Positions 206-64,000 of a stretch of DNA of 64,000 nucleotides are shown here, piece by piece. This DNA comes from an uncultured Acidobacteriota bacterium. Its GTDB lineage: Bacteria > Acidobacteriota > UBA6911. Below the pieces are notes generated by a model that saw only the letters and a list, made by a program, of their open reading frames with translations, was not told where the DNA came from and made no database searches. The position numbers and the translations under genes were made by a program. The stretch is taken from contig CAWJKZ010000024.1 in the NCBI GenBank assembly GCA_963843575.1, positions 181,313 through 245,312 on the forward strand. The letters run 5' to 3'. How positions within the stretch are numbered: the first letter of the stretch is position 1; every line of letters begins with the position of its first letter.

Positions 206-2423
<2,218 letters not shown>

Positions 2424-5366: not shown

Positions 5367-6593
5367 ATGGCGGCATATATATACAAGGCATCGACGATCG
5401 ACGGGAAGATCGTGGAAGGGACGATGGAGGCGGCCGACAACGGCGCGGCGTCCCTGAAGCTCCACGACATGGGCCTGCTGCCGATCCGGGTCGGCCCGGC
5501 CGGCGGCCGGAGCGCCCTCAATCGAGAGATCGAGTGGCCCTGGAAGCGCAAGCGCCGGGTGAGGCGCAAGGACCTGCTGGTGTTCACCCAGGAACTTCAC
5601 ACCCTGGTCGCGGCCGGATTTCCCCTGGACCGCACCCTCAGCGTCCTCGGTCAGCTTGCCGAGAGCCCCGCCCTCTCCGAGGTGATCCAGGGGGTGCTCA
5701 AAGAGGTCAAAGGGGGCAAGTCCTTCTCCGAAGGGCTGGGCAAATACCCCGAGGTCTTCCCCAAGGTCTACGCCAACATGGTCAAGGCCGGCGAGGTCGG
5801 CGGCGCGCTGCAGGAAGTGCTCGGCCGGCTGGCGCAGTTCCTCGAGACCAGCGAGAACCTGCGCTCCTACATCGTCGGCGCCCTCATCTACCCGGCGCTG
5901 CTGTCGGTGGTCGGCATCGCGAGCGTCACCATCCTCACCCTGTTCGTCGTCCCCAGGTTCGCTTCCATCTTCCAGGACATGGGGCTGCCGCTCCCGCTGC
6001 CGATGGCCATACTGAAGGGACTGAGCGACTTTCTCATGCAGCTACTGGTGGCTGGTGATCATCGCGGCGGGGCTGGTGATCTATTACCTGAAGCGCTTCC
6101 GTTCCAGCCCCGAAGGCCGCCTGAAGATGGGACCGCTGGCTGCTGCGCACTCCCCTGCTGGGGAAAGTGCTGCGCAAGGTCGAGGTGGCGCGCTTCTCCA
6201 GGACGCTCGGAACGCTCCTGCACGGCGGCGTCCCGCTGTTGCAGGGAATGACGCATCGTGCGCGATGTCGTCGGCAACCAGGGCATCGCGACCATGATCG
6301 ACCCGATCCGCAACGGAATCAAGAAAGGGGAGGGGATCGCCCAGCCCATGAAGCAGAGCGGAGTGTTCCCGCCCCTGGCCATGCACCTGATCGAGGTGGG
6401 CGAGGAGTCGGGGAAGCTGGACGCGATGCTGCTCCAGGTCGCCGACGTCTACGACAACGAGGTGCGCGACGGCGTCAAGAACCTGATCGCGTTTTTCGAA
6501 CCGGCGCTGATCCTGGTCATGGGCATCATCATCGGCACCATCGTCGTGTCGATGCTGCTGGCCATCTTCAGCATCAACGACATTCCCCTCTAG
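5367..6593 (+). CDS. gspF: Type II secretion inner-membrane platform protein GspF (frameshifted near 6050-6260)
   Basis: GspF/PilC-family repeats (QLAESPALSEVIQGVLKEVKGGKSFSEGL, FPPLAMHLIEVGEESGKLDAMLLQVAD) and TM segments. Three frame fragments. Confidence 0.85.
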
Positions 6594-29233: not shown

Positions 29234-29327
29234 AAGTGGGTCTGGGCTTCAGCCCGGACGTCTTTTGATCTGAGCTATACAGCTAAGCATGCGCTGTATA
29301 GCGACCGACGAACCAGCGTCCCACTTG
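29234..29327. mobile_element. MITE-like element copy: 27-bp arm AAGTGGGTCTGGGCTTCAGCCCGGACG, an internal palindrome GCTATACAGC...GCTGTATAGC, and a degenerate right arm
   Basis: Same arm as the copies at 46132, 53298, 55168 and 58699. Starts 3 nt after the stop of the FGE-domain gene. Confidence 0.65.
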
Positions 29328-46131: not shown

Positions 46132-46299
46132 AAGTGGGTCCGGGCTTCAGCCCGGACGCAGTTTGCGGTCGCTATGCAGGGCAGGTGGAGCTGTATGGAA
46201 CGGATTTAAAGACGTCCGGGCTGAAGCCCGGACCCACTTGGTTTACGGGCAGGGCGGACGGTTAACCGTTGGACGGCCTCTGAAGCCCGGACCCACTTG
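46132..46299. mobile_element. MITE-like element, full copy: arm, about 55-bp spacer, inverted arm, about 40 bp, and a third partial arm
   Basis: AAGTGGGTCCGGGCTTCAGCCCGGACG at 46132-46158. Its reverse complement is at 46213-46239. Partial CTGAAGCCCGGACCCACTTGG at 46279-46299. Architecture matches the 55168 copy, including the shared GGTT.AACCG.TGGACG.CCTCTGAAGCCCGGACCCAC segment. Confidence 0.75.
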
Positions 46300-48024: not shown

Positions 48025-48507
48025 CTACCGGTTGCGGCTCCCCTCGAGTTCGAGGGCCCGGCGCCAGCTCTCGATGGCGCGGTCGCTGTCGCCGGCGAGA
48101 CGGTAGAGCCGCGCCTTGGTGGCCAGGATCTTGGCCCGGTTGGCGTTGAGCTCCGTGTTTTTGAGGGCCTCGTCCAGGAGTGTCTGGCCGAGGTCGAACC
48201 GGCGGATTTCCGCGAACTTGTCGGTGATGATGCTCAGGCTCTGCGCGACAAGGCTCTCGTACTCGGGTGGGAAGCGGAGCTGGATGATCTGGCGGGCCTC
48301 CGCCATCGCCTTGTCCAGGTCGCCCTTCTTTATGTAGAGCTCGGCCAGGTCGTGGTGGGCCTCGGCGAGGTCGAATTTCTGAGCCAGTTCCGGGCTGCGT
48401 GTCTGCGGCTGCGCCTGGCCGGAACCCACGACAGGGGCGCAGGCGAGCAGCAGGGCGAGAAGCGGGAGCTTCAGCGCCCTTGGGCCCAATGCGAGGTCAA
48501 GAATCAT
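48025..48507 (-). CDS. TPR-repeat lipoprotein
   Basis: Signal/lipobox-like N-terminus LPLLALLLACAPV and TPR helices (AEAHHDLAELYIKKGDLDKAMAEARQII; RAKILATKARLYRLAGDSDRAIESWRRALEL). Confidence 0.6.
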   Translation of the reverse strand: MILDLALGPRALKLPLLALLLACAPVVGSGQAQPQTRSPELAQKFDLAEAHHDLAELYIKKGDLDKAMAEARQIIQLRFPPEYESLVAQSLSIITDKFAEIRRFDLGQTLLDEALKNTELNANRAKILATKARLYRLAGDSDRAIESWRRALELEGSRNR

Positions 48508-48540
48508 ACGGACTGCTCCCTGGCGGGGATGCGCTCCCCG

Positions 48541-49056
48541 CTACCGGTCGGCGAATGGATTTCCCTTGCCCTGAATCAGGGTAGATTGATATCTCGTAAA
48601 AGGATTGCTGTAATCCTGTCCCAGGCTGCGGAACGGGTTCCCCGCTTCCTTGAGGCGGGCCTGCTCGACCGCGCCGTACTGCGCGATGGCGGTCAGCTCA
48701 CTCTGCCGGGCCGCGTCCCTGTACTGGCGGACTCCCACGGTCAAGGCGAGGAGCATGAACAGCGACAGGCTGACGCCGACGGCGAACTGCCGCGGCCTGG
48801 ACAACACTCCGAACCAGCCGGGGGCCGGCCGCGGCTCCTCGAGCCTCGCCCGGATCCGGAACCACTGCGCGGCGGGCACGTCGATCTCGAGCCCCGTCGA
48901 GCGGAACAGGAGGTCGACCGACCGCCACCGGGCGAGTTCGTCCCGGCAGCCCGCGCACGTCTCCAGGTGCCCGCGGATCTCCTCGAAGCGCGCGTCGGCG
49001 CGGTCGCCGTCGAGGTAAGGGCCGAAATCTGCGGGATGGTCTGTTCTCGCGTTCAT
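48541..49056 (-). CDS. Zinc-finger anti-sigma factor
   Basis: HLETCAGCRDELARW motif, one TM helix (FAVGVSLSLFMLLALTV), and a 4-nt overlap with the upstream ECF sigma gene. Confidence 0.65.
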   Translation of the reverse strand: MNARTDHPADFGPYLDGDRADARFEEIRGHLETCAGCRDELARWRSVDLLFRSTGLEIDVPAAQWFRIRARLEEPRPAPGWFGVLSRPRQFAVGVSLSLFMLLALTVGVRQYRDAARQSELTAIAQYGAVEQARLKEAGNPFRSLGQDYSNPFTRYQSTLIQGKGNPFADR

Positions 49057-49742
49057 CTTCGGATTTCCAGGTATTGCCCCAGGGACTTGCGCGCGAAAGA
49101 ACGGGCACGGAATATGTCCGTCTTGACCGACAGGAGCGAACGTCCCACGATGTCGGAAATCTCGGCGTAACTCTTTTCGTGAATCACGGCCAGCACGAAT
49201 ACCTCGCGAAGCTTCGGCGGGAGCGAACCGAGCACCACCCTGATCCGCGCCCCCAGTTCCTCCTGAAGAACCACATCCTGCGGGGTCGGCCGGCCGTCGG
49301 CCGGTTCGAACTCCGCCTGCTCCCTGCCGTCGCCCCCCACCGCTGGCGGCTGCCGGGGAGGCTCGCTCCGCTTTTTGCGGAACGTCTGATAAACCTCGTT
49401 TCTGGCGATGCGGTAGAGCCAGGATTCGAACCGCCCGGGATCCTGCAGCCTCGGGAGTTCGTGAAAGGCCCTCAGGAAAACGTTCTGCGCCAGATCTTCC
49501 GCGTCTTCCCGGCTATCTACCATCCGGTAGATGAAATTCAATATGCGCCGGCCGTACTCCTGGTGGACCTGCCGGAAGGCTTCCACCTCGCCGGCCTTGG
49601 CTCTCTGGATGAGTTCAGCCTGTTCGCTCTTCAAAAATCGTATCTCGAGGGTGAAAGGCTTTCCGTCGCAGAGCCGACTGCCAAGATGATCCGAGACGGA
49701 AAAAGTTGCAAAAAAAAGCTTGACTCGCCGCGGATTATGCAA
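49053..49742 (-). CDS. ECF-type sigma-70 factor (true start probably downstream of 49742)
   Basis: Region 2 (DLAQNVFLRAFHELPRLQDPGRFESWLYRIARN) and region 4 (LPPKLREVFVLAVIHEKSYAEISDIVGRSLLSVKTDIFRAR). Confidence 0.8.
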   Translation of the reverse strand: MHNPRRVKLFFATFSVSDHLGSRLCDGKPFTLEIRFLKSEQAELIQRAKAGEVEAFRQVHQEYGRRILNFIYRMVDSREDAEDLAQNVFLRAFHELPRLQDPGRFESWLYRIARNEVYQTFRKKRSEPPRQPPAVGGDGREQAEFEPADGRPTPQDVVLQEELGARIRVVLGSLPPKLREVFVLAVIHEKSYAEISDIVGRSLLSVKTDIFRARSFARKSLGQYLEIRR

Positions 49743-49829
49743 CCTTGCGGCCCCGCATGCCGTCCTGTATAGTCACATGGCTGCAGACGCCGCCAGGGTC
49801 TTTCGCGCACCCTTCAAGGAGTCGTTTTC

Positions 49830-51036
49830 ATGTCTCTCCCCAACCAGGACCGCCGTTCCCGCACCGGGCGGGCAGTCTGCCTGCTGGTTCGCAACCTTAT
49901 AATGGCCACGTCTGTTTTCGTCCTCTGGGCCGCCCCCATTATCGGCATGGACCAGGACGCTGTCCAGAGCACGGCACAGCCGGCCGACCCGGAGGCGCAG
50001 GTGCGGGCACGGATCACGGCCTACTGGGAAGCCATGCAGCGGGAGGACTACCGGGCGGCCGCGCAGTTCGTCCACCCGGCCTCCCGCGACCTTTTCGAAC
50101 ACAGGGTCCCCAAGTCCCGGATCGACCGGTGGAGCATCCAGAAGCTCCAGTTCAACGACGAGCGCACCGTGTGCGACGCTACCATCCTCGTTTCGAAACC
50201 CGTAGCCATTTTCGAATCCAACGTCGTCGACTGGCCCTTGAAAAACCAGTGGGTGCTGTTCGAGGGGGACTGGTACTTCAAGATCCCCTGGGACAGCAAG
50301 ACGAACCCGGCGCTCGAGTTGTTCCGCGCCCAGCAGGACACGGCCGCGAAAACGACCGAGATCCGCGAAGCCAGGCCGAGCACCGCCGCGCCGTCGGCCG
50401 AAGCGATCGAGCGGCTCGCCGCCACCCGGTTTTTCACGCCCGGACCCGGCCAACCCCTCGGTCGTCCACAACGGGCAGAAAAGCGTGTTCCGCTATCACT
50501 ACACCAACGCCAAGGCCACGGCGACGCGCATCGTCTCGGTCCACTCCGACTGCCACTGCACCAGTGTCAAGCAGGAGTACCCGGAGATCGCTCCGGGCGC
50601 GGAGGGGACAGTGGAGGTGACGCTGGACACCTTCGGGCTGCCGCTGGGATCTGTCCAGAAGGAAGTGTATGTCACGTTCGCCGACCAGGCGGATCCCCAG
50701 GTGATCCGGATCTCGGTCAAGAACCAGCCCAATTTCGCCGTCAGCCCCGCCCGGGTCAACTTCGGGCTGGTGGCGCGCGGCAAACCAGCCGAGGCGTCGC
50801 TCCGGATCGTCAACCAGAGCGGCCAGCCCGTGAAGCTGCTGTCGCACCTCAAATCCGACCCGAAGCTCCAGGTCGTCGTGGACAAGCCCGCCCTCGAACC
50901 GGGCGAGACGGCGACCGTGACGCTCCGCTACGACGCCTCCTCCGCCGGCGAGTTCCTTGACAGCCTCATGCTTCAGACGGACCTCGCGGCGGAACCCCTG
51001 ATCACGGTGGCCGTCCGCGGCGAAGTCGCCCGCTGA
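49830..51036 (+). CDS. Secreted protein with an NTF2-like N-terminal domain and a C-terminal DUF1573 domain (single frameshift near 50440, or two adjacent genes)
   Basis: DUF1573 signature NGQKSVFRYHYTNAKATATRIVSVHSDCHCTSV. A repeated Ig-like fold continues to 51036. Confidence 0.5.
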
Positions 51037-51039
51037 GGC

Positions 51040-51488
51040 TCGGAGAGAAGAACGCGGATTTCAGGGATCTAACGGATTCACGCGGCCTGCCACCCATGCC
51101 TTTATCTTCGTTCCGCGTGGATCCGCGGCCATCCGCGTCCGCAAAAGCAGGTTCTTTTTTTAATCAAATAGCTTTTTCCCCGCAACTTTTTGCCGATTTG
51201 TGCATCTGTGACCGTGTTGTTTGAGGTTCCCGTACGTGGGGACCCCCAGGACGACGTCCCTGAAATCAGTTGACATTCCCCGCGCTGGCTGTTAGGGTTG
51301 CGCCGCCAGTATGGGTAAGTCGTACGTTGTAGCATGTCCCTTCGAGAAGGGGTGTGCCGGCTTGTTTGCCGTTCGCCCTACAACGCGCCTTAGCTCGAAA
51401 TTACTTGGACCTCTAGATGAACCTATCGGACGCACGAAAGTCTGGTAGTCGTTACCCAATGCTCACCATTTACTTACGGAGAAAGCGT
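51040..51488 (+). promoter_or_regulatory. Long (about 450 nt) lower-GC 5' leader or promoter region of the putative surface-protein gene
   Basis: Locally lower GC. TTGACA at about 51271 with TAGGGT 17 nt downstream. RBS GGAGAAAG precedes the ATG at 51489. Confidence 0.35.
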
Positions 51489-53204
51489 ATGACTTTGTTG
51501 AAAGCTAGCAGAATGCCCTTGCTGGCGGGATTGCTATGTCTCCTGCTGCTGGGCTTCGCTGGAGCTTCCTACGGCGCGGTTCGCTTCGACGTTGTATCGT
51601 CGCCGACTGAAGTGATCAATACCGGCCGCTCGGAAGTCACGGGTTCCGTGAACCTGATCGTTCGCGGGGCTGGCAACGTGACGGGCACCTCCCTGGGCGG
51701 CAACACCCAGATCGGGTTTATTTACACGAACCCGGCCATGCAGATCGACAACACGACGACGTCCGGGATCAAGCTGGTCTACAGCGCCGGATTTACGTCC
51801 GCCAGCCCGCACTTCGCGCCTGTCGCGGTTGAGAACTTCGACTTGAACGGCCGCTGCTCGGGCCGTATCACGATCGTTCTTGCCGCCGGTGCGCAGCCGG
51901 TCGAAGGCGACTTCATCCGTGTCGAGGGTGTGCGTGGCAGAATCGATGCCAGCCTTGCCGTGACCCCGGGGACCGACCTCTACGTTGACCTGCAGTCGAT
52001 CAACGACCCGACCTCGGCCAACTTCACCCCGGACCGCGTCCGCGTGGCGAAGTCCCTGGACGGCATGAACGTGGCGATCTCGCCCGATACCCTGTTGCTC
52101 TGCTTCCCGACCACCGGCAGACCGCCGTCAGGCACCGAGAAGCCCAGCTACTACATCAGGATCACCGAGGGCTTCGCCCGCGCGTTCGTGGATCAGGATG
52201 CCAACAACGACGGCTCCTTGGCCACCGACCGCGTCGACTCCGGCAACGGCCTGATCGGCGTTACCACCGCTCCGGGCGCCCTGGGTGCACCGAACAACTC
52301 GACCCAGTTCCTCGTCTGGTTGGAATCCATCCCGACCAGCGTGGACGACATCGAGTGGCAGGCTTCCGTAGGAACCGACTCCTCGACCGGCGCCAGCCTC
52401 GTTCTGGTTGAGGACAGCGCCACCTTCTCCTCGACTCTCGGTGTGGCCACCGCCCTCTATTCTTATGAGAGCGTCAACCAGACCGACGTCAGCGATATCG
52501 CGGTTGAGGTCTTTACGCTCATGCCGACGATCATCCTGAAGAGCACCACGGCGACCACGACCGGAACGATTATGGCCGGCGTGAGCCTGGCTCCTGCGGT
52601 CGATGCACTCTCCGGCTGCCCGGTCCCGACCGGTTCGTCCACGATCGGCCGTCCTCGCTTCCTGAGAATGTTCGAGTCCGACGCGGTTGCCACCAACAAC
52701 CCGCCGGATGACCCGCTGAAGCCCTATGCTCAGGTCATTCGCTGCAACTGCTACATGCTGTTCACCTATGTCACTGCGACCGCCGACTTCAACACCGGCA
52801 TCGCGGTGGCCAACACCACTGGTGACACGGCTCCGTTCGGCGTGAACGAGGCTCCGGATCAGCTTGGTAAGATCACCTTCTACTTCTACGATCGTACCGC
52901 CGGCTACGTGGGGACGACCGAGACCGCCGCTGATATTCAGACCGGCCGTAGCTATGTTGATCTGGTTTCCAACATCCTGCCGACTGGTGTGACCAGCTTC
53001 TCCGGTTACATCATCGCCAAGGCGGACTTCCAGTTCTGCCACGCCTTCGCCTTCATCGCGGACACCGGGTTCGCTTCGATCGCGCACGGCTACGTGGCGA
53101 ACATCATTCCTGACCCGGCGATCAAGAACATCAACGATCGCAGGGCTCCCGCCGCGGCTGCGGACGTGTTCAACATTCCTGCGGGTGAAAGCCTGAACAA
53201 CTAG
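51489..53204 (+). CDS. Putative abundant secreted/surface protein (S-layer-like candidate), 571 aa
   Basis: Intact. Signal peptide MTLLKASRMPLLAGLLCLLLLGFAGASYGA. Thr/Ser/Gly/Ala-rich with beta-rich composition and no enzyme motifs. Strong terminator immediately downstream. Confidence 0.45.
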   Translation: MTLLKASRMPLLAGLLCLLLLGFAGASYGAVRFDVVSSPTEVINTGRSEVTGSVNLIVRGAGNVTGTSLGGNTQIGFIYTNPAMQIDNTTTSGIKLVYSAGFTSASPHFAPVAVENFDLNGRCSGRITIVLAAGAQPVEGDFIRVEGVRGRIDASLAVTPGTDLYVDLQSINDPTSANFTPDRVRVAKSLDGMNVAISPDTLLLCFPTTGRPPSGTEKPSYYIRITEGFARAFVDQDANNDGSLATDRVDSGNGLIGVTTAPGALGAPNNSTQFLVWLESIPTSVDDIEWQASVGTDSSTGASLVLVEDSATFSSTLGVATALYSYESVNQTDVSDIAVEVFTLMPTIILKSTTATTTGTIMAGVSLAPAVDALSGCPVPTGSSTIGRPRFLRMFESDAVATNNPPDDPLKPYAQVIRCNCYMLFTYVTATADFNTGIAVANTTGDTAPFGVNEAPDQLGKITFYFYDRTAGYVGTTETAADIQTGRSYVDLVSNILPTGVTSFSGYIIAKADFQFCHAFAFIADTGFASIAHGYVANIIPDPAIKNINDRRAPAAAADVFNIPAGESLNN

Positions 53205-53221
53205 GCTTATCCCACACGGGA

Positions 53222-53268
53222 TCAATAAAGGGGGTAGCTCCCTCACCGGGGGCTACCCCCTTTTTGTG
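53222..53268 (+). terminator. Rho-independent terminator
   Basis: GGGGGTAGC-tccctcaccgg-GGGGCTACCCCC followed by TTTTTGT, 18 nt after the stop. Confidence 0.8.
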
Positions 53269-53297
53269 TGTCGCAATAAGCAGGCGCCAAATAAAGC

Positions 53298-53385
53298 AAG
53301 TGGGTCCGGGCTTCAGCCCGGACGCCTTTTGCACTTGTACATAGTGCAAGTCAAACTACGTCCGGGCTGAAGCCCGGACCCACTT
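53298..53385. mobile_element. MITE-like element, short copy (arm, about 34-bp palindromic spacer, inverted arm), followed by a REP-like half-arm at 53389-53407
   Basis: AAGTGGGTCCGGGCTTCAGCCCGGACG at 53298-53324. Its reverse complement is at 53359-53385. Spacer contains the palindrome TTGCACT-TGTACAT-AGTGCAA. Confidence 0.75.
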
Positions 53386-53428
53386 GGGAGGCGGCGCCGC
53401 ACTCCAATTTCTGCTATCATCCCCTGCC

Positions 53429-54154
53429 GTGTACAAGAGCCGCCCCATCACCGTCGTCATCCCGTGCCTGAACGAGGAGAAAGGCATCGTCGAGGTACTC
53501 TCCCGCATGCCCTCGTTCGTCGACGAGGTCATCGTCGTCGACAACAACTCGACCGACCGCACCCCCGAGCTCGCCCGCCGACACGGAGCGCGCGTGATCC
53601 ACGAGAAGGTCCGGGGATACGGCCGCGCTTACAAGACCGGCCTCCTCGAAGCTCAAGGGGACATCGTCGTCACGCTCGACGGCGATCACTCCTACCCGGT
53701 GGACGCTATTTCCTATCTCCTGGAAATCTTCCTCCGCTCCGAGGTCCGCTTCGTGTCGGCCTCGCGGTTCCCTCTGAAGAACCGGCGCGCGATGTCGGCG
53801 AAGCACTGGCTGGGCAACCGGCTCCTGAGCCTGGCGATGTCGGTCCTCTATTTCCGCTGGGTCCGCGACTCCCAGTCCGGCATGTGGGTGTTCGAGCGGG
53901 ACAGCCTCTCCCGGATGCACCTCGAGAGTGACGGCATGGCCTTCAGCGAGGAGATCAAGATCGAGGCCATCCGCAACCGGCACATCGGGTTCAAGGAGAT
54001 CTACATCGACTATTCCAACCGCATGGGCGAGATCAAGCTGCAGCCGTGGCGCGACGGCTGCCGCAACCTCGCGTTCCTGGTAAAGAAGCGGTTTGGGTGG
54101 CGGCGACGGCGCGACGCGGCGCCGCTCGTGCAGAAATCGGAGACCCCGCGGTGA
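53429..54154 (+). CDS. Glycosyltransferase family 2 (Dpm1/polyprenyl-phosphate sugar synthase-like)
   Basis: GTG start. Motifs ITVVIPCLNEEKGIVEV and DEVIVVDNNSTDRTPELA. DGD is the DxD motif. Confidence 0.8.
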   Translation: MYKSRPITVVIPCLNEEKGIVEVLSRMPSFVDEVIVVDNNSTDRTPELARRHGARVIHEKVRGYGRAYKTGLLEAQGDIVVTLDGDHSYPVDAISYLLEIFLRSEVRFVSASRFPLKNRRAMSAKHWLGNRLLSLAMSVLYFRWVRDSQSGMWVFERDSLSRMHLESDGMAFSEEIKIEAIRNRHIGFKEIYIDYSNRMGEIKLQPWRDGCRNLAFLVKKRFGWRRRRDAAPLVQKSETPR

Positions 54155-55200
54155 CGACCAGGGTGGACGGGACCGATCGACCCGGCGCCGCGGCTCCCTG
54201 TCCCGTTTGCCGGCGCGCCGACGCGCCGTTGTACGGCGTCGGACGCGACCGCCTCTTCGGCCTTGCGCCGGGTGAATACCGGCTGTACCGCTGCCGCGGC
54301 TGCCGCTGCATATTCCAGCACCCCCTCCCCCCGGAGCCGGCGCTGGCGGGCTTCTACCCCGAGGAATACTGGTGGGACGGCGCGGCTGGGAACCGCGGGG
54401 CCGCTTCCGGGATGCTCGCGCGGGCCGAGCTTCTCTATCGAGAAACCGTCGTGCGCGACCACGTGCGCTTCGTCGCGCGCTGTGCCGGAGCCGGGGGCTC
54501 CGGTCTCCGGCTCCTCGACATCGGCTGCGGGAGCGGCACTTTCCTGGCGATGGCGGGGCGGCGCGGCTTCCAACCCTGCGGCATGGATGTCTCCGAGCGC
54601 GCGGTCGCGGCCGCCCGGCGGCAGTACGGTCTCGACGTGCGCCACGGCGGGATCGGCAGCGCGCTCTGGGAGCCCGCGAGCTTCGACCTGGTGACGATGT
54701 TCCACGTCCTCGAGCACGTCCGCGACCCGCGCGGCGCGCTCGACTATGCCCGCGGCCTGCTCAAACCCTCGGGACGGCTCGTCGTGCAGGTCCCCAACGC
54801 GAGATCGCTCCAGGCCAGGGCGTTCGGGACGCGCTGGTACGGTCTGGACGTGCCCCGGCACCTCATCAACTTCAGCGCCGACGGCCTGGAGATCCTGCTG
54901 CGCGAGGCCGGACTGGAGATCCGCGCCGTCTCCCGTTTTTCGCTCCGCGACAACCCTGCGGCCCTCGCCTCGAGCGCGGCCCCGGCCCTGGACCCCATCG
55001 GCCGCAAGGGGCGGCGGCGCGACGCCGGCCGGCCGGCGGCCCGGGCCGCCCTCGAGCTCGCCTACTTCTCCCTGACCCTCCTGGCCCTGCCGCTCGCCCT
55101 CGCCGAGAGCGCCTTCGGGCTGGGCGCGACCCTCTGGGTCGCCGCAAGCCCGACCAACAGAAGAATAAGTGGGTCCGGGCTTCAGCCCGGACGCCTTTAG
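54151..55200 (+). CDS. Class I SAM-dependent methyltransferase. Its C-terminal tail runs into the MITE arm.
   Basis: GTG start overlapping the GT2 stop. Motif I LLDIGCGSGTF, plus DLVTMFHVLEHVRDP and KPSGRLVV. The last residues (...RISGSGLQPGRL) are translated from MITE sequence. Confidence 0.75.
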   Translation: MTTRVDGTDRPGAAAPCPVCRRADAPLYGVGRDRLFGLAPGEYRLYRCRGCRCIFQHPLPPEPALAGFYPEEYWWDGAAGNRGAASGMLARAELLYRETVVRDHVRFVARCAGAGGSGLRLLDIGCGSGTFLAMAGRRGFQPCGMDVSERAVAAARRQYGLDVRHGGIGSALWEPASFDLVTMFHVLEHVRDPRGALDYARGLLKPSGRLVVQVPNARSLQARAFGTRWYGLDVPRHLINFSADGLEILLREAGLEIRAVSRFSLRDNPAALASSAAPALDPIGRKGRRRDAGRPAARAALELAYFSLTLLALPLALAESAFGLGATLWVAASPTNRRISGSGLQPGRL

Positions 55201-55335
55201 ATCCGCCTCATCTAGAAACAGTTTCACGTCATAGTTTCAGCAAACTACGTCCGGGCTGAAGCCCGGACCCACTTGTTTTTCCGGCAGGCCGGGTGGTTCA
55301 ACCGCTGGACGACCTCTGAAGCCCGGACCCACCTG
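55168..55335. mobile_element. MITE-like element, full copy (arm, about 54-bp spacer, inverted arm, about 40 bp, partial third arm)
   Basis: Arms at 55168-55194 and 55249-55275. Partial arm at 55316-55335. Same layout as the 46132 copy. Confidence 0.75.
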
Positions 55336-55384
55336 AGTTTTCATTTGCGCGCTGCCGTGACCACGGATAGGATCTTTCCCCATC

Positions 55385-56383
55385 ATGGCAAATCTCCGGC
55401 TGACGAAAGTGAAAGTGCTGGTGACCGGCGGCGGCGGGTTTATCGGCAGCCACCTGTGCGAGCTCTGCGCCCGCGAGGGGGCGGAGGTGCGGGCGTTCGT
55501 CCATTACAACTCGCGCTCCGACTGGGGCATGCTCGAGCTCCTGGACCGGCGCGTGCTCAAGGGTATCGAAGTGCAGTCCGGGGACCTGCGCGACGCGGAA
55601 GCGGTACGCCGGGCGGTGCGCGGATGCAACTTCGTGTTCCACCTCGGGGCTTTGATCGGCATCCCCTATTCGTACGTGAACCCGCTCGATGTCGTGTCCA
55701 CGAACGTGCTGGGGACTGCGCACGTGCTGCAGGCAGGCCGCGAGTTTTCGATCGAACGCATCGTGCAGACTTCGACGAGCGAGGTGTATGGCACAGCGCA
55801 GTACGTGCCCATGGACGAGGCGCACCCGCTCGCGCCGCAGTCCCCTTACGCGGCGTCGAAGGTGGCGGCCGACAAGCTGGCTGAAAGCTACCACAGGGCT
55901 TACGGCCTCCCTGTCACCATCGTGCGGCCGTTCAACACCTACGGCCCGCGCCAGTCGCCCCGTGCCGTTATCCCGACGATCGTGCTGCAGGCCCTGCGGG
56001 GCAAACGGATTCGGTTGGGTAACACGGGCCCGAGCCGCGACCTGACCTTCGTCACCGACACGGCGCGCGGTTTCGTCGACGCCGCCTTGAGTCCGGCCGC
56101 GGAGGGGCAGACGGTGCAGCTGGGTTCGGGGACCGAGACCTCGGTGCGGGACTTGGTCGCCGCCGTCGCGGCGATTCTCGGCAAGGAACTTGTCGTCGTG
56201 CGCGAGCGCCGGCGTGAACGACCCCGGGGAAGCGAGGTGGAGCGCCTGTATGCGTCCAACCGGCGCGCCGCCGACCTGACAGGCTGGCGGCCGACGGTGC
56301 CGCTGGCGCGGGGTCTGCAAAAAACGATACACTGGTTCCGTGGCCGGACGGCCCTTTACAAAACGGATCTTTACCATGTCTAG
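55385..56383 (+). CDS. NAD-dependent epimerase/dehydratase (SDR family; UDP-sugar 4-epimerase or 4,6-dehydratase-like)
   Basis: Rossmann motif VLVTGGGGFIGSHL and catalytic YAASK. Intact 332 aa. Confidence 0.85.
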   Translation: MANLRLTKVKVLVTGGGGFIGSHLCELCAREGAEVRAFVHYNSRSDWGMLELLDRRVLKGIEVQSGDLRDAEAVRRAVRGCNFVFHLGALIGIPYSYVNPLDVVSTNVLGTAHVLQAGREFSIERIVQTSTSEVYGTAQYVPMDEAHPLAPQSPYAASKVAADKLAESYHRAYGLPVTIVRPFNTYGPRQSPRAVIPTIVLQALRGKRIRLGNTGPSRDLTFVTDTARGFVDAALSPAAEGQTVQLGSGTETSVRDLVAAVAAILGKELVVVRERRRERPRGSEVERLYASNRRAADLTGWRPTVPLARGLQKTIHWFRGRTALYKTDLYHV

Positions 56384-57170
56384 CCCCACAGAACCGCAAA
56401 TCGTCGTCGTGCTGCCGGCGTACAATGCGGCGAAGACCCTCGAGCAGACCTACGCCGATTTGCCCAAGGACAAGATCTCGAAGATCATCCTGGTGGACGA
56501 CGTCAGCCAGGACCAGACCGTGGAGGTCGCCAAGGCCCTCGGGCTTTCGGTCGTGATCCACGTGCAGAACCGGGGTTACGGCGGCAATCAGAAGACGTGC
56601 TACCTCGAGGCGCTCAAGCACGGCGCGGACGTCGTGGTGATGCTCCACCCCGATCACCAGTACGACTCGCGCCTCGTCCCCGAGCTCGTGCGCCCCATCC
56701 TGGAGGGGCGCGCCGACATGGTGATGGGCTCGCGGATCATGAACGGTCGCGCCCTCCAGGGGGGCATGCCGAAGTGGAAGTACCTGGCCAACCGGGCGCT
56801 CACCATCACCGAGAACTTTGTCTTCCGCACCCGGCTGACCGATTGCCACAGCGGATTTCGCGCCTACAGCCGCAAGCTGCTCTCCACCGTCCCGTTCCTG
56901 CTCAACTCCGACGATTTTGTCTTCGACTCCCAGATGATCGCCCAGGCGGTGCACCTGGGATTCACCATCACCGAGATCGCGGTCCAGGCTCGTTATTTCC
57001 CCGAAGCCTCCAGCGTGAACTTCAAGGTGAGCACCGTTTACGGCATCAAGACGCTGGGCGTGCTCGGGAGTTTCCTGCTGCAGCGGTCCGGCGCAGCCCA
57101 CTTCCGCATCTTCGAACGCACTCTGCCGGAGGTGATCAGCAAGTACTACCATGAGGGGATCTTCCGCTGA
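56376..57170 (+). CDS. Glycosyltransferase family 2
   Basis: Motifs IVVVLPAYNAAKTLEQTY and ILVDDVSQD. Confidence 0.8.
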   Translation: MSSPTEPQIVVVLPAYNAAKTLEQTYADLPKDKISKIILVDDVSQDQTVEVAKALGLSVVIHVQNRGYGGNQKTCYLEALKHGADVVVMLHPDHQYDSRLVPELVRPILEGRADMVMGSRIMNGRALQGGMPKWKYLANRALTITENFVFRTRLTDCHSGFRAYSRKLLSTVPFLLNSDDFVFDSQMIAQAVHLGFTITEIAVQARYFPEASSVNFKVSTVYGIKTLGVLGSFLLQRSGAAHFRIFERTLPEVISKYYHEGIFR

Positions 57171-57197
57171 GGCCCGGCCGTCCTGAAAGCCCGGCCC

Positions 57198-58292
57198 GTG
57201 CACCCGCGCCCGAAGGGTGGAGCAGAGCGATTGTATCTACAGTGCGAGCACAACTCGAAACAACCGGGACTCGTTCCCGGTCTGGTTTCGGTCGTGGTGG
57301 TGAACTGGAACGGGATGGGGTACCTGCCCGAGTGCCTCGAGTCCGTCCGAATGCAGTCGTACGACCGGAAGGAGATCGTGGTCGTCGACAACGGCTCGAC
57401 CGATGGCTCGCGCGAATGGCTGCGCGCCCACCCGCCCGAGTGCGGCCGCCTGGTCCAGCTCGACTCGAACCGCGGCTTCGCCGGCGGCGTGAACGCGGGC
57501 ATCCGCGTGTCGTCCGGTGAATACGTCGCGCTGCTGAACAACGACGCGGTCGCCGAGCGCGACTGGCTGACGCACCTGGTGGCCTCCGCGGCCGATCCCG
57601 CCGTCGGTATGGTCGCCTCGAAAATCCTGTTCTACGACCGGCGCGGCGTGATCGACAAGACGGGCCACCTGCTTTACCCCGACGGTCTGAACCGCGGCCG
57701 CGGGGCGGGCGAGACCGACAGCGGGCAGTACGACCGGGACCTGGAGATCCTGTTCCCGGACGGGTGCGCGGCCCTCTACCGCCACCGGATGCTCCACGAG
57801 ATCGGGCTGTTCGACGAAGAGTTCTTCGCCTACGGCGACGACGCGGACCTCGGGCTGCGGGCCTGCTGGCAGGGCTGGAAGTGCGCCTACGCGCCCGGGG
57901 CCCGGGTCTACCACCGCCACTCCAGCAGCCTGGGGAAATACTCGCCCGAAAAGGCGTTCCTGGTGGAGCGCAATCGGTTCTGGGTCGCGGTGAAGCTCCT
58001 GCCCTGGCACCGCCTCGCCCTTTCGCCGTTCTTTACAATGTGGCGCTTTTGCTGGCACATTAGCAGTGTTTTCGCAGACAGGGGGCTGGCGGGGGGCGTC
58101 GCCCGGGACCACAACGCAGGCAGGCTGGCGTGGGCCTTGGTGCGCGCTTACGTCTCCGGCATATCCGGCCTGATCAACATCCTGCGCAAGCGCAGGGACG
58201 TGTTCCAGACGAGGCGCATCCGTTCGGCCGAATTCTGCCGGCTGATCCGCAAGTACCGGATTTCGGCCCGGGAACTCGCGCTGCGCGACTGA
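57198..58292 (+). CDS. Glycosyltransferase family 2 (rhamnosyl/GalNAc-transferase-like; start uncertain)
   Basis: Motifs VSVVVVNWNGMGYLPECLESV, IVVVDNGSTDGS and a DxD-like DDADL. Confidence 0.75.
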   Translation: MHPRPKGGAERLYLQCEHNSKQPGLVPGLVSVVVVNWNGMGYLPECLESVRMQSYDRKEIVVVDNGSTDGSREWLRAHPPECGRLVQLDSNRGFAGGVNAGIRVSSGEYVALLNNDAVAERDWLTHLVASAADPAVGMVASKILFYDRRGVIDKTGHLLYPDGLNRGRGAGETDSGQYDRDLEILFPDGCAALYRHRMLHEIGLFDEEFFAYGDDADLGLRACWQGWKCAYAPGARVYHRHSSSLGKYSPEKAFLVERNRFWVAVKLLPWHRLALSPFFTMWRFCWHISSVFADRGLAGGVARDHNAGRLAWALVRAYVSGISGLINILRKRRDVFQTRRIRSAEFCRLIRKYRISARELALRD

Positions 58293-58297
58293 TCACT

Positions 58298-59350
58298 ATG
58301 GCCACGACGGTCTTTCTCACCGGGGGTACGGGCTACCTCGGCGGCACGCTCCTGCGTCAGCTCCTGGACGCGGGCTACGCCGTGCGCGCGCTGGTCCGGC
58401 GCGCGCCGGCCCCCCTCCCCGCGGGCGAGGTGGAGCCGGTTGTGGGCGACCTTTCGGATCCGGACCGCCTGGCCGGGCCCATGAGGGGGTGCGCCGCCGT
58501 GTTTCACAGCGCGGCCCTGGTCTCGTGCTGGGCCCGCGACCGCCAGGACTTTTACCAGACCAACGTCGACGGTTTGCGCAACGTGTTGCGCGCCGCGGCG
58601 GCTGCGGGGACGGGAACAGTAGTCTACACGTCGTCGTTCTTCGCGCTCGGCCCGGCGGAACTGCCGGGGGCGCGCGAGGACTCCGGGGCCGAGCCCACAA
58701 GTGGGTACGGGCTTCAGCCCGGACGTAGTTTGCGTTGGCTTGGCGGCGTGTGCGGAACGCCCCCCTATCTTCACAGCAAGTTTCTGGCGCGCGCAGAGGC
58801 CCGGCAGGCGAAGGCGTCGGGATTCCCGATCGTGATCCTGTATCCCGGGGTGATCTACGGCCCGGGGCGCCGCACCGCCGGGAACCTCGTCGGCCGCCTC
58901 GTTGCGGACTTCGTGTCGGGGCGCATGTCCGCGCTGCTTGGCAACGGCCGCCAGATCTGGTCCTTCGCTTTTATCGAGGATGTCGCCCGCGGCCACCTGC
59001 GGGCCATGGAGCGGGCCGCCGGCGGGGGCGAGTTCGTCCTCGGCGGCGACAACGTGTCGCTGCGCGGGTTTTACGAGATCCTGGCGCGGCTTTCAGGCCG
59101 GCCCGCGCCGCGGCTGCGCCTCCCCGCGGTGCTCGGCGCCCTGGCCGGCGCGCTCGAGTTCGCGCGCGCGCGGGCCCTCGGCTCGATCCCCGCCGCCACC
59201 CCGGCCACCGTGCTGGCGATGTACAAGAGCTGGGCTTGCGATTCGGGCAGGGCGCAGGCGGAACTGGGGTACGACTGCACGCCCCTGGAACAGGGGCTGC
59301 GCCTCACGCTGGACGCGATGGACGTGCCCACCGGCGAGGGGCGCCAATGA
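58298..59350 (+). CDS. NAD-dependent epimerase/dehydratase (SDR) carrying an in-frame solo MITE-arm insertion
   Basis: Rossmann motif VFLTGGTGYLGGTLLRQL and catalytic YLHSK. The 27-bp MITE arm at 58699-58725 encodes an SGYGLQPGRS-type insertion just upstream of the catalytic Tyr, without breaking the frame. Confidence 0.75.
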   Translation: MATTVFLTGGTGYLGGTLLRQLLDAGYAVRALVRRAPAPLPAGEVEPVVGDLSDPDRLAGPMRGCAAVFHSAALVSCWARDRQDFYQTNVDGLRNVLRAAAAAGTGTVVYTSSFFALGPAELPGAREDSGAEPTSGYGLQPGRSLRWLGGVCGTPPYLHSKFLARAEARQAKASGFPIVILYPGVIYGPGRRTAGNLVGRLVADFVSGRMSALLGNGRQIWSFAFIEDVARGHLRAMERAAGGGEFVLGGDNVSLRGFYEILARLSGRPAPRLRLPAVLGALAGALEFARARALGSIPAATPATVLAMYKSWACDSGRAQAELGYDCTPLEQGLRLTLDAMDVPTGEGRQ

Positions 59351-59393
59351 TCCTGCGTTCGTGGAACGCCGCCGGAGCGGATCGGAGTTGCGC

Positions 59394-60113
59394 GTGCTGA
59401 ATTCACGGGTGAAAAGCCTGGCCCGGCGCATCCTGCCGGACGTCGTCGCCGGATGGCTCGACCCGGTCGAGCGCACCATCGACTCCGAGGTGCGCCGTGC
59501 CGCCGCGCTGGTGGGCGACGGCCAGGTCGTGCTCGACGCCGGCGCCGGGGAAGCGCGGCACCGCGGCTTTTTCCAGCGCGGGCGCTATGTCGCCCTGGAT
59601 GCCGGGTCCGGCGACCCGGCCTGGGATTACTCGGGGCTCGACGTCCGCGGGGACCTGGGGTGCCTCCCGCTGCGCGCCCGCAGCGTGGACGGGGTGCTCT
59701 GCATGGTGGTCCTCGAGCACACGCGCGACCCGCGCCGCACCCTGGCGGAGTTCGGGCGGGTTCTCAAACCCGGCGGTTTCCTGGTCATGGTCGTGCCTTT
59801 CCTCTGGGAGGAACACCAGGCGCCCCACGACTACTTCCGGTTCACCCGCCACGGCGTGCGGCTCCTCTTCGAGGGCCTCCCGTTCAGGATCGACCTGCTG
59901 TCCCCGCTCGGCGGCTTTTTCCGCGTTTGCGCGCGCCGCTGTGTGAACCTGCTCGGCTTCTTCCAGCAGGGGTGGCGCTGGCCGCTCTTCGTGCTGCTCG
60001 CGCCGTTTTTCGGGCTGCTCTTCCCGGTGCTCCTCCATTTTCTCGACGGGCTGGACCGTTCCAGGGAATTTTCCCTGGGTTTCCAGATCCGGGCGACCAG
60101 GGACCAGGACTGA
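59394..60113 (+). CDS. Class I SAM-dependent methyltransferase (Methyltransf_11-like)
   Basis: Motif I VVLDAGAGEARH, plus VDGVLCMVVLEHTRDP and KPGGFLVMVVP. The C-terminus is hydrophobic. Confidence 0.65.
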   Translation: MLNSRVKSLARRILPDVVAGWLDPVERTIDSEVRRAAALVGDGQVVLDAGAGEARHRGFFQRGRYVALDAGSGDPAWDYSGLDVRGDLGCLPLRARSVDGVLCMVVLEHTRDPRRTLAEFGRVLKPGGFLVMVVPFLWEEHQAPHDYFRFTRHGVRLLFEGLPFRIDLLSPLGGFFRVCARRCVNLLGFFQQGWRWPLFVLLAPFFGLLFPVLLHFLDGLDRSREFSLGFQIRATRDQD

Positions 60114-63839: not shown

Positions 63840-64000
63840 ACGCCGCGATCACGAAGGTGGCCGTGCTGGTGACGACCGCGGCCCTCGCCGCCTGCGGCTC
63901 CCGCCCCGAGGCCGCGCCCGGCAAGCCACCGGACCTCGATCTGCTGCCGCGGCTGGCTCTCGCGCTCGAACAGGCGGGCAGGCAGTCGGGCCGGCCCGGC
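63836..64000 (+). CDS. Lipoprotein, N-terminal fragment (continues beyond the window)
   Basis: ATGA overlap with the upstream gene. Lipobox-like AALAACGS. Confidence 0.4.
   Translation, partial: MNAAITKVAVLVTTAALAACGSRPEAAPGKPPDLDLLPRLALALEQAGRQSGRPG

What the first reader, a model, noticed from the sequence alone, without database searches (positions are those of the whole stretch)
46132..46299. Novel MITE-like repeat family with 27-bp terminal inverted arms AAGTGGGTCCGGGCTTCAGCCCGGACG
The same arm, containing the internal palindrome CCGGGC-TTCA-GCCCGG, occurs as inverted pairs at 29234-29327 (right arm degenerate), 46132-46239, 53298-53385 and 55168-55275. The 46132 and 55168 copies share an extended about 40-bp tail plus a third partial arm, giving elements of about 170 bp. 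Spacers are variable but themselves palindromic. There is no transposase, so these look like non-autonomous miniature elements. They sit at gene ends, for example 3 nt after the stop of the FGE-domain gene.
Basis: seen in the sequence. Interest (0 to 1): 0.7.

Follow-up and report, generated by a model that had tools for sequence, protein, structure and literature searches.

The report
Acidobacterial REP-type palindromic repeat doublets
The repeats are real. They are a new family of a well-known class of short bacterial hairpin repeats (REP elements, here paired head-to-head into REPIN-like doublets) that is common in soil Acidobacteriota, and they are not a new kind of mobile element.

Summary
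The 27-mer occurs 8 times in the window, against 0 expected by chance. That single arm lies in frame inside an epimerase gene.

Each arm is a REP-type module. It has an unpaired GTGG tag, then a perfect 8-bp GC stem with a 4-nt TTCA loop. Five of the eight stem pairs show compensatory changes across 60 arm variants. Across 7 loci from at least six species-level genomes and 120 metagenome loci, 227 arms form mainly head-to-head doublets (62, against 17 tail-to-tail and 8 tandem). The same arms flank several unrelated spacer families.

No copy has a target-site duplication. A syntenic relative (about 84% nucleotide identity) lacks all three copies in the shared 16 kb, including the clean 54-nt in-frame insertion.

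I read these as non-autonomous REP/REPIN elements, most likely moved as single-stranded hairpins by a Y1 (HUH) transposase encoded elsewhere. That last step is inferred: no such gene flanked on both sides by these arms was found. The only links are arms lying beside two Y1 genes in metagenome contigs.

The family is a new member of a known kind and of moderate interest.

The parts
29234..29260 (+). Copy A, left arm (REP unit; C to T at stem position 4, which leaves a G-T pair)
   Evidence: 1 mismatch
29261..29316 (+). Copy A spacer. It is homologous to the spacers of B (reverse complement) and D and contains a 10-bp internal palindrome, GCTATACAGC/GCTGTATAGC.
   Evidence: (I2)
29317..29327 (-). 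Copy A, remnant of the right arm (CGTCCCACTTG). The 16-nt hairpin core has been deleted.
   Evidence: read directly from the sequence
46132..46158 (+). Copy B, left arm (exact match)
46159..46212 (.). Copy B spacer (54 nt), inverted relative to the spacers of A and D
   Evidence: (I1, I2)
46213..46239 (-). Copy B, right arm (exact match)
46240..46299 (+). Copy B tail: a linker with the palindrome ACGGTTAACCGT, followed by a third, partial arm (CTGAAGCCCGGACCCACTT, 46280-46298)
   Evidence: (D18)
53298..53324 (+). Copy C, left arm (exact match)
53325..53358 (+). Copy C spacer (34 nt) with an internal hairpin. Its ends, CCTTTTG and CAAACTA, match those of the copy D spacer.
53359..53385 (-). Copy C, right arm (exact match)
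55167..55193 (+). Copy D, left arm (exact match). It overlaps the 3' end of the methyltransferase ORF, whose stop codon (55198-55200) lies in the spacer.
55194..55247 (+). Copy D spacer (54 nt)
55248..55274 (-). Copy D, right arm (exact match)
55275..55335 (+). Copy D tail with a third, partial arm (55316-55334), about 83% identical to the tail of copy B
   Evidence: (D18)
58697..58761 (+). Copy E: a single arm (58699-58725, 1 mismatch), the spacer start TAGTTTGC and about 30 further nt. It is a net 54-nt in-frame insertion (18 aa) in epimerase gene 58298-59350, directly before the catalytic YxxxK. The syntenic relative and 10 other homologues lack it.

Best explanation
These are REP-type elements (repetitive extragenic palindromes), mostly arranged as head-to-head doublets of the REPIN/BIME kind.

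The functional unit is the arm. It has an unpaired 5' GTGG tetranucleotide directly followed by a perfect 8-bp GC stem with a TTCA loop (GTGG-GTCCGGGC-TTCA-GCCCGGAC). Two arms in inverted orientation, with GTGG on the outside, enclose a spacer that can be almost anything. As a result each DNA strand presents the same tag-plus-hairpin module at its 5' side.

The most likely mechanism runs as follows. When the DNA is single-stranded, for example on the lagging-strand template, the hairpin and tag are recognised by a Y1 (HUH) tyrosine transposase of the IS200/IS605-RAYT superfamily encoded elsewhere in the genome. That enzyme cuts and rejoins next to the module and so copies or moves the doublet without making a target-site duplication.

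Only copies with intact arms stay mobile. This would explain why the arms are invariant while the spacers drift or are exchanged.

Once inserted at gene ends, the strong hairpins probably also affect the host transcript. In the window's spacer type the arm is followed by a short T run, so it resembles a weak terminator.

Shown here:
- the anatomy of the arm and doublet;
- selection on the hairpin;
- the statistics of doublet arrangement;
- the absence of target-site duplications;
- gain or loss of copies between relatives;
- the wide distribution of the family.

Inferred:
- the identity of the enzyme;
- the single-stranded-DNA mechanism;
- any effect on transcripts.
For: Anatomy and selection on the arm:
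- Outside the 22 bases used as the search pattern, the GT of GTGG is conserved in 90-91% of 162 arms, and a C three bases upstream in 72%. The base 3' of the stem is not conserved.
- Across 60 distinct arm variants, 5 of 8 stem pairs show changes on both sides (17 cells). None of 500 shuffles reached the observed covariation score.

Arrangement:
- 227 arms form 62 head-to-head, 17 tail-to-tail and only 8 tandem pairs, with spacers of 19-100 nt. This is the pattern reported for REP dimers (PMC3733652, read).
- The same arms enclose at least five unrelated spacer families, each recurring in both orientations and in different flanks.
- No direct repeats flank any window copy.

Gain or loss of copies:
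- Relative L128 is collinear with window 48122-63990 at about 84% nucleotide identity and has no arm. The alignment breaks exactly at copies C and D, and copy E is a clean 54-nt in-frame insertion.
- All 11 other homologues of the epimerase lack that insertion.

Resemblance to known Y1-transposase substrates:
- REPs that flank genuine RAYT genes in fetched loci have the same build: GTAG directly followed by a perfect GC hairpin, and in L133 an 8-bp stem with a 4-nt loop.
- Experiments in the literature show that RAYTs need this tetranucleotide and hairpin, and that a GTGG variant is still cleaved by one such enzyme, the Marinomonas REPtron Mb transposase (PMC8266576).

Links to Y1 genes:
- Arms lie within 100 nt of the only two Y1 genes in about 0.6 Mb of arm-containing loci.
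- One is the intact IS200-family tnpA in L073. Its 75-nt inverted ends are themselves hairpins with AGTG(G/A) tags, and an arm doublet abuts its left end.
- The other is the RAYT fragment in L127.
Against: - No Y1 transposase gene flanked on both sides by this arm (a REPtron) was found. There is none in the 64-kb window, and the rest of the source genome could not be read.
- The RAYT family of L127 carries its own, different REP type (GTAGGGGC...GCCCCTAC) in L129, L131, L132 and L133. The arms in L127 are a recurrent tail-to-tail unit inserted next to that REP. That link may therefore be target preference and not a cognate relationship.
- Insertion sequences are known to target REPs (PMC12288879, abstract). 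The adjacency in L073 could have the same trivial cause.
- The canonical tag is GTAG, not GTGG.
- Exact conservation of a 22-26-mer across host contigs of 34-67% GC is unusual for REPs, which are often lineage-specific.
- Sites C and D are not clean empty sites, because the intergenic DNA has diverged. Loss in the relative cannot be excluded there.
Confidence: 0.6

Rival explanations
1. A classical MITE. It would be a deletion derivative of a DDE-transposase insertion sequence, with the 27-bp arms acting as terminal inverted repeats bound as double-stranded DNA by a transposase encoded elsewhere.
For: - The elements are short and non-autonomous, have perfect inverted termini and are variably present between relatives.
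- Genuine MITEs with target-site duplications do exist in these metagenomes, and some contain the doublets.
Against: - No target-site duplication flanks any of the five window copies.
- Arms occur as singlets, as tail-to-tail pairs and as trimers.
- Each arm is an internally paired hairpin with compensatory variation and an unpaired conserved tag. A double-stranded TIR does not need either feature.
- The spacers between identical arms are unrelated families.
Confidence: 0.07
2. Host-selected structural elements whose spread is secondary. The hairpins would be kept because they act as terminators, mRNA 3' stabilisers or protein-binding sites (as shown for E. coli REP/BIME), and copies would arise mainly by recombination or gene conversion, not by dedicated transposition.
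For: - All four intergenic window copies lie downstream of a co-directional gene and share the same orientation relative to transcription. In that orientation the first arm is followed by YCTTT(T/A).
- Two arms meet the simple terminator criteria.
- Arm sequence is invariant while spacers drift.
- The stem covaries.
Against: - Copy C sits just downstream of a separate canonical terminator at 53227-53263, so it is not needed for termination there.
- No terminator-like site was scored at copy B.
- T runs are not a general feature of the family's flanks.
- One copy is inside a coding sequence.
- Doublets are nested in other mobile repeats.
- The relative manages the same operon without any copy.
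- This reading does not explain how a 54-nt piece entered an epimerase gene.
Confidence: 0.2
3. A family of small structured RNA genes or cis-regulatory RNA motifs.
For: - The fold is strong and significant.
- The stem shows compensatory changes.
Against: - No Rfam family matches at gathering score. Only generic hairpin matches fall below threshold.
- The element is symmetric, so both strands give the same module.
- Spacers are unrelated between sub-families.
- No promoter-like sites were found.
- One copy is translated as part of an enzyme.
Confidence: 0.03
4. DNA-uptake-signal-like or other protein-recognition words, conserved because a conserved host protein reads the sequence. Inverted pairs would arise as in Neisseria DUS terminators.
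For: - A 22-26-nt word is exactly conserved across many species and across GC contents of 34-67%.
- It often occurs as inverted pairs at gene ends.
Against: - The stem varies by compensatory changes. This shows selection on pairing, not on the word itself.
- Known uptake sequences are 9-12 nt (own knowledge).
- Nothing here links these organisms to competence.
Confidence: 0.03

Closest known systems
GTAG-tagged REPs and their doublets (REPINs/BIMEs) with RAYT/TnpA-REP. Examples are the S. maltophilia group 3 REPs (a perfect 16-nt palindrome directly preceded by GTAG) and the Opitutus terrae GTAG-20 family, in which most units carry GTGG (PMC3733652, PMC8266576, PMC3116915).
   Same: - An unpaired tetranucleotide sits directly 5' of a perfect GC-rich hairpin (8-bp stem, short loop).
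- Head-to-head doublets predominate, spaced 20-100 bp apart, and tandem pairs are rare.
- Copies lie mainly between co-directional genes and downstream of coding regions.
- Occasional in-frame copies occur inside genes.
- There is no target-site duplication.
- Sub-families differ by complementary stem changes.
- Doublets are nested inside other palindromes.
   Different: - The tag is GTGG in 90% of units.
- No RAYT gene flanked by these units has been found yet.
- The host is Acidobacteriota, a phylum for which the 2013 survey listed only TIR-flanked Y1 genes.
- The same arm is exact in many species and flanks many unrelated spacer modules.
CGTC-tagged REPs (families CGTC-1 to CGTC-4; PMC3733652)
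   Same: - The stem is 8 bp and the loop 4 nt.
- A CCA follows the stem on the complementary strand.
- The window copies read CGTC-CGGGC-TGAA-GCCCG-GAC-CCA.
- Head-to-head dimers predominate.
- No associated transposase is known.
   Different: - The G that completes CGTC is present in only 28% of 162 arms, so CGTC is not the family's tag.
- GTC is paired in the stem instead of being unpaired.
- The A-T pairs typical of the CGTC stem base are absent.
TIR-flanked Y1 transposase genes ('TIRYT'/TIRtrons) of Acidobacteria, and IS200/IS605 elements with their palindrome-associated derivatives
   Same: - In L073 an intact IS200-family tnpA is bracketed by 75-nt inverted ends built of GC hairpins preceded by AGTG(G/A). 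An arm doublet lies directly at one end.
- These elements also use a hairpin with a 5' guide tetranucleotide and make no target-site duplication.
   Different: - The window's elements carry no gene.
- Their arms are not the L073 ends.
- The published TIR consensus GGGGWSAS is not present in the arm.
Bacterial MITEs derived from DDE insertion sequences
   Same: - They are about 90-170 bp long and non-coding.
- They have inverted termini, lie in intergenic DNA and are variably present between relatives.
   Different: - There are no target-site duplications.
- The termini are self-folding hairpins.
- Singlets and tail-to-tail arrangements occur.
- The internal sequences are unrelated between sub-families.

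Membership tests
REP (GTAG super-family) | Short (20-40 bp) palindromic unit that forms a stem-loop | tested here: met
   The unit has an 8-bp perfect stem and a 4-nt loop. 93% of cells are paired across 60 variants, and 5 of 8 pairs show compensatory changes.
REP (GTAG super-family) | Conserved unpaired GTAG (or close variant) tetranucleotide at one end of the hairpin | tested here: met
   GTGG lies directly 5' of the stem. Its G and T lie outside the search pattern and are conserved at 90% and 91%. Canonical GTAG is seen in only 1 of 60 variants. A GTGG variant is documented for O. terrae GTAG-20 (PMC3733652).
REP (GTAG super-family) | High copy number within a genome | tested here: inconclusive
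   The window has 8 arms at 5 loci in 64 kb, all within 29-59 kb. The rest of the source genome could not be fetched.
REP (GTAG super-family) | Mostly extragenic, lying downstream of genes and between co-directional or convergent genes | tested here: met
   4 of 5 window loci are intergenic and lie between co-directional genes. One is inside a gene and in frame.
REP (GTAG super-family) | Units pair as head-to-head or tail-to-tail dimers, with head-to-tail pairs rare | tested here: met
   There are 62 head-to-head, 17 tail-to-tail and 8 tandem pairs among 227 arms.
REP (GTAG super-family) | A RAYT/TnpA-REP gene flanked by the same REP (a REPtron) in the genome | tested here: inconclusive
   There is none in the window. 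Arms lie next to a RAYT fragment in L127 and to an IS200-family tnpA in L073, but they do not bracket either gene. The RAYT family of L127 carries a different REP type in L129, L131, L132 and L133.
REPIN | Two inverted REPs with a short spacer fold into one long hairpin | tested here: met
   Folding energies are -47.6 to -57.2 kcal/mol, with z-scores of -8 to -12.5.
REPIN | The doublet, including its spacer, is the unit that is copied | tested here: met
   The 19-, 60-, 93-, 95- and 100-nt spacer classes each recur in several loci, and some of those have different flanks. The window's A, B and D spacers are homologous at 62-71%. Caveat: some recurrences are the same locus sampled from different metagenomes.
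REPIN | Single-copy, vertically inherited group 2 or group 3 RAYT in the same genome | not testable with these tools
   The source contig (520 kb) and the rest of the MAG could not be read.
CGTC-tagged REP | Conserved unpaired CGTC at one end | tested here: not met
   The G that completes CGTC is present in 28% of 162 arms. GTC is part of the stem.
MITE (DDE type) | Terminal inverted repeats flanked by a target-site duplication | tested here: not met
   No direct repeat flanks copies A-E, whether the boundary is taken at the arms or after the tails.
MITE (DDE type) | A related full-length IS shares the same termini | not testable with these tools
   This needs the whole genome. No such IS is present in the window or in about 0.6 Mb of fetched loci. 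Only Y1 genes were searched for systematically.
Integron attC site | R''/R' core sites (RYYYAAC ... GTTRRRY) and arrays of co-oriented cassettes next to intI | tested here: not met
   The element ends read CAAGTGGG...CCCACTTG. Spacing between copies is 1.8-17 kb, among polysaccharide-synthesis genes.
Rfam RNA families | A match at gathering score | tested here: not met
   There were 0 matches in the window. Only generic hairpin hits below threshold were found.

The most novel reading that the evidence does not exclude
One invariant GTGG-hairpin module serves as the universal end for a whole toolkit of modular single-strand-mobilised elements across Acidobacteriota. The toolkit includes many spacer cargoes, tails, trimers and nesting in other MITEs, with at least one occurrence in a 34%-GC contig binned as Bacteroidota. 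In this reading the module is driven not by a classical RAYT but by a TIR-flanked IS200-like Y1 transposase of the L073 type. The module would then spread horizontally among soil bacteria and would also reshape proteins by in-frame insertion next to active sites.
Probability: 0.15. Interest if true: 0.6.

Novelty: new member of a known kind. Interest (0 to 1): 0.35.

Why it matters
REPs and REPINs have been studied almost entirely in Proteobacteria. This family extends the class to Acidobacteriota, an abundant but poorly cultured soil phylum.

The material is also unusually clean:
- the arm is invariant while the spacers are freely exchangeable;
- the stem shows clear compensatory variation;
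- copies are present or absent between two collinear genomes;
- one 18-residue in-frame insertion sits directly before a catalytic tyrosine.

If the partner enzyme were identified, the family would be a good system for asking how Y1 transposases choose substrates carrying a GTGG guide. It would also help to explain how such repeats persist.

For genome annotation the practical point is that these arms create spurious ORFs, alter gene ends (here the C-terminus of the methyltransferase) and break assemblies.

Tried and rejected
- **Rfam.** Scans at gathering and at E-value thresholds gave no family.
- **Plasmids, phages, viral contigs.** The element and the arm gave no match in any of these collections.
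- **RAYT in the window and loci.** I ran tblastn with an E. coli RAYT sequence written from memory, then with the L127 N-terminus, then an HMM built from 105 full-length hits. There was no hit in the window. Only L127 and L073 hit among the arm-containing loci.
- **RAYT ORFs that read through the arm.** I looked for arm-encoded peptides in 236 RAYT-family proteins and found none apart from L127 itself. The 'GLKPAPT' tails come from a different REP type, GTAGGGGCGGG..CCCGCCCCTAC.
- **RAYT genes on large ENA/NCBI contigs.** The two I fetched (L132, L133) carry GTAGGGGC-type REPs and no arm.
- **Relatives of the L073 tnpA in viral contigs.** None were found.
- **The source contig.** An exact protein look-up found only a record without DNA.
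- **CGTC-REP reading.** Rejected on the position statistics.
- **attC reading.** Rejected on the end sequences.
- **Clean empty sites for copies C and D.** The intergenic DNA of the relative is too diverged to give exact boundaries.
- **Literature.** No searchable paper contains the arm sequence or describes an acidobacterial REP family.

Full report
**Observation**

The 27-mer AAGTGGGTCCGGGCTTCAGCCCGGACG occurs eight times in the window with at most one mismatch. Dinucleotide-preserving shuffles give none.

- Three loci are intact inverted doublets: B (46132-46239), C (53298-53385) and D (55167-55274).
- Locus A (29234-29327) has a left arm with one mismatch. Its right arm is reduced to CGTCCCACTTG by loss of the 16-nt hairpin core.
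It is a single arm at 58699-58725.
- B and D are each followed by a roughly 60-nt tail that ends in a partial third arm. The two tails are about 83% identical. The same tail module follows a doublet of another spacer class in metagenome locus L115.
- The doublets fold into long hairpins far more stable than shuffled sequence, with z-scores of -8.2 to -12.5.

The window is about 65% GC. The nearest named homologues of one of its proteins come from Acidobacteriota.

**Gene context**

Copy A starts 3 nt after the stop codon of an FGE-sulfatase-domain ORF. Copy B lies downstream of an FG-GAP-repeat gene on the minus strand. Copies C, D and E lie in a polysaccharide-type cluster of family-2 glycosyltransferases, a methyltransferase and two NAD-dependent epimerases.

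Copy C sits just after a separate canonical terminator at 53227-53263. Copy D overlaps the 3' end of the methyltransferase ORF, whose stop codon now lies in the spacer.

The spacers of A, B (reverse complement) and D are homologous at 62-71% identity. C is a shorter version with the same ends. Relative to the direction of transcription, all four intergenic copies have the same orientation.

No direct repeats flank any copy.

**What the arm is**

One scan of species-representative genomes found the exact 26-mer in seven loci. Six MAGs labelled Acidobacteriota or Terriglobia account for most of them, and one is a 7-kb contig binned as Bacteroidota. Host contigs range from 34 to 67% GC.

Over 162 arms, the bases outside the search pattern show where conservation ends.
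- The G and T of GTGG are 90% and 91% conserved.
- A C three bases further upstream is 72% conserved.
- The base after the stem is not conserved; G appears there in only 28%.

The unit is therefore GTGG followed directly by GTCCGGGC-TTCA-GCCCGGAC.

Sixty distinct variants exist. Many are complementary double changes, for example GGGCGGGC/GCCCGCCC, GTCGGGGC/GCCCCGAC, GTGCGGGC/GCCCGCAC and GGCCGGGC/GCCCGGCC. In a formal count, 5 of 8 stem pairs carry changes on both sides in 17 cells, and no shuffle out of 500 reaches the observed covariation score. Pairing itself is therefore under selection.

**How the arms are arranged**

Among 227 arms there are 62 head-to-head pairs (GTGG outside), 17 tail-to-tail pairs and 8 tandem pairs. 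Head-to-head spacers cluster at 19, 30, 36, 56-60, 93-95 and 100 nt.

The same arms enclose several unrelated spacer families, each recurring in both orientations. In the 100-nt class the partner arm is a compensated variant.

Many doublets are nested in larger repeats. The 100-nt class sits inside a roughly 250-bp MITE that has its own inverted ends and a 9-bp duplication containing CTAG. Other classes sit inside the palindrome GTCTCAAAACT...GTTTTGAGAC.

This is the mosaic, modular behaviour described for REPs, BIMEs and REPINs. The survey by Di Nocera et al. reports the following (PMC3733652):
- a terminal unpaired GTAG, mutated to GTGG in most Opitutus terrae GTAG-20 units;
- stems of 6-13 bp;
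- head-to-head dimers predominating, 20-100 bp apart, with head-to-tail pairs rare;
- location downstream of genes;
- occasional copies inside genes;
- insertion of dimers into other palindromes.

That paper's alternative class, CGTC-tagged REPs, fits the window copies superficially but fails on the family statistics.

**Evidence that copies come and go**

The epimerase containing copy E is identical to a database protein from a 520-kb contig. Its closest relative (81% identity, 18 residues shorter) lies on a 1.6-Mb contig.

The 21-kb locus around that relative, L128, is collinear with window 48122-63990 at about 84% nucleotide identity. It contains no arm, even allowing six mismatches. The alignment breaks exactly at copies C and D.

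At copy E the comparison is clean. The window has a net 54-nt in-frame insertion that adds 18 residues directly before the invariant catalytic Tyr-x-x-x-Lys. All eleven other homologues aligned lack the insertion. The unoccupied site in the relative is itself a small GC palindrome, GCCCGCCGGGC.

At copy D the insertion replaced the last seven codons of the methyltransferase with fifteen new ones and a new stop codon.

Six arms are perfect while spacers differ by 30-40%. This fits a replicator in which only copies with intact arms can be copied. Recent insertions then always carry intact arms, whatever spacer lineage they derive from.

**The partner enzyme (the inferred step)**

No Y1 transposase gene was detected in the window. 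In about 0.6 Mb of arm-containing loci only two Y1 genes appear, and both lie next to arms.

- **L127.** This locus holds the N-terminal half of a RAYT (NCBIfam REP_Tyr_transpos, E = 2.8e-5; its homologues are full-length PF01797 proteins named REP-associated tyrosine transposase). The gene is interrupted after the HUH motif by a palindrome, GTAGGGGCACGTTGCAACGTGCCCCTAC, and by a tail-to-tail pair of arms. That arm pair is a recurrent unit also seen in L013, L075 and L124. Intact members of this RAYT family in L129, L131, L132 and L133 are decorated with GTAGGGGC...GCCCCTAC palindromes, variously upstream of the gene, inside its variable region, across or just after the stop codon, and none of these loci has an arm. 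Their cognate REP is therefore that type. L127 more likely shows an insertion next to a hairpin than a cognate pairing.
- **L073.** This locus holds an intact IS200/IS605-family tnpA (NF033573 84 bits; PF01797 106 bits). It is bracketed by 75-nt inverted ends made of GC hairpins preceded by AGTG(G/A). A head-to-head arm doublet abuts its left end directly. The terminal motif of those ends, AAATGTATAAACTCCAG followed by a variable GC hairpin, occurs in six loci, and in five of them it lies within about 50 nt of an arm. The motif is absent from the window.

These observations show a physical association between arms and Y1 elements. They also show that REPs flanking real RAYT genes have the same build as our arm: a tetranucleotide followed by a perfect GC hairpin, with an 8-bp stem and 4-nt loop in L133.

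Published biochemistry shows that RAYTs bind single-stranded REP hairpins and need the 5' tetranucleotide, which can act as a guide for choosing the cleavage site. A GTGG variant is still cleaved by the Marinomonas enzyme (PMC8266576).

The evidence does not yet include a REPtron for this arm. Insertion sequences that merely target REPs are also known (PMC12288879, abstract).

**Possible host effects**

In the window's spacer type the first arm met by RNA polymerase is followed by YCTTT(T/A). Two arms pass a simple terminator scan. There was no such call at copy B, and copy C follows an independent terminator. Any effect on termination or mRNA stability is therefore plausible for individual copies, but it is not shown and is not general.

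**Verdict**

The interpretation as a non-autonomous mobile repeat is broadly right, but the element belongs to the REP/REPIN class and is not a new MITE. Its termini are tag-plus-hairpin modules, not double-stranded transposase-binding repeats.

No paper in the searchable library contains the arm sequence or describes an acidobacterial REP family. I therefore rate it a new member of a known kind.

Confidence that it is a REP-type family is high, about 0.85. Confidence that a Y1 transposase moves it is moderate, about 0.55. For the combined statement I give 0.6.

Noticed in passing
window 1687-1700(+)/1775-1788(-), 15577(+)/15640(-), 36135(+), 36164(+), 23874(-), 33049(-), 53393(-), 31400(-): A second REP-like family is present: TGGAGTGCGGCG(N)C followed by a GC hairpin. 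It has 10 sites against 0.39 expected and includes two head-to-head doublets. The 53393 copy is conserved at the orthologous place in relative L128, and a variant occurs in L073:3-123. Like the main family, it has a GTG-containing tag 5' of a GC hairpin.
   Followed up: partly
L027, L028, L072, L084, L117 (around the 100-nt-spacer doublets): These doublets lie inside a roughly 250-bp MITE. It has inverted ends TTTCTGTCGCGAAACTC and a 9-bp target duplication containing CTAG, and it is inserted at different places. This is a genuine DDE-type MITE carrying a REP doublet as cargo.
   Followed up: partly
L073:332-1068: An intact IS200/IS605-family tnpA (493-951) has 75-nt inverted ends made of AGTG(G/A)-tagged GC hairpins. 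That is atypical for IS200/IS605 and resembles the 'TIRYT' arrangement described for Acidobacteria. An arm doublet abuts its left end.
   Followed up: partly
L030, L037, L073, L086, L101, L113: The 17-nt motif AAATGTATAAACTCCAG is always followed by a different GC hairpin. Five of its six occurrences lie within about 50 nt of an arm. It is absent from the window.
   Followed up: partly
L129:5250-5290 and 5510-5540; L131:66-95, 399-426, 657-686; L132; L133: RAYT genes of the MxYDPxKHHRRSIRL family carry GTAGGGGC...GCCCCTAC palindromes at some or all of three places: upstream of the gene, in frame inside it after the HUH motif, and across or just after the stop codon. Many database ORFs of this family are truncated in that variable region.
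   Followed up: partly
L005:2632-2657: One arm (1 mismatch) lies in a 7.4-kb, 34%-GC contig binned as Bacteroidota, embedded in a long AT-rich palindrome. This could reflect horizontal spread or a binning error.
   Followed up: no
window 46159-46212 versus 55194-55247: The spacer of copy B is inverted relative to that of copy D, yet the 60-nt tail lies on the same (right) side of both. This could reflect inversion between the perfect arms or independent assembly of the modules. It remains unexplained.
   Followed up: no
window 55167-55200 versus L128:6911-6945: Copy D supplies the last 11 codons and the stop codon of the methyltransferase, which now ends ...TNRRISGSGLQPGRL*. In the relative the protein ends ...LRVGGKP*.
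   Followed up: yes
window 53227-53263: A canonical intrinsic terminator (16-bp stem followed by a T run) lies after the 51417-53204 gene, immediately upstream of copy C. It is conserved in L128.
   Followed up: partly
window 51036-51172 versus L128:2918-2976: There is another break in the otherwise collinear alignment with the relative, in an intergenic region without arms. It was not examined.
   Followed up: no
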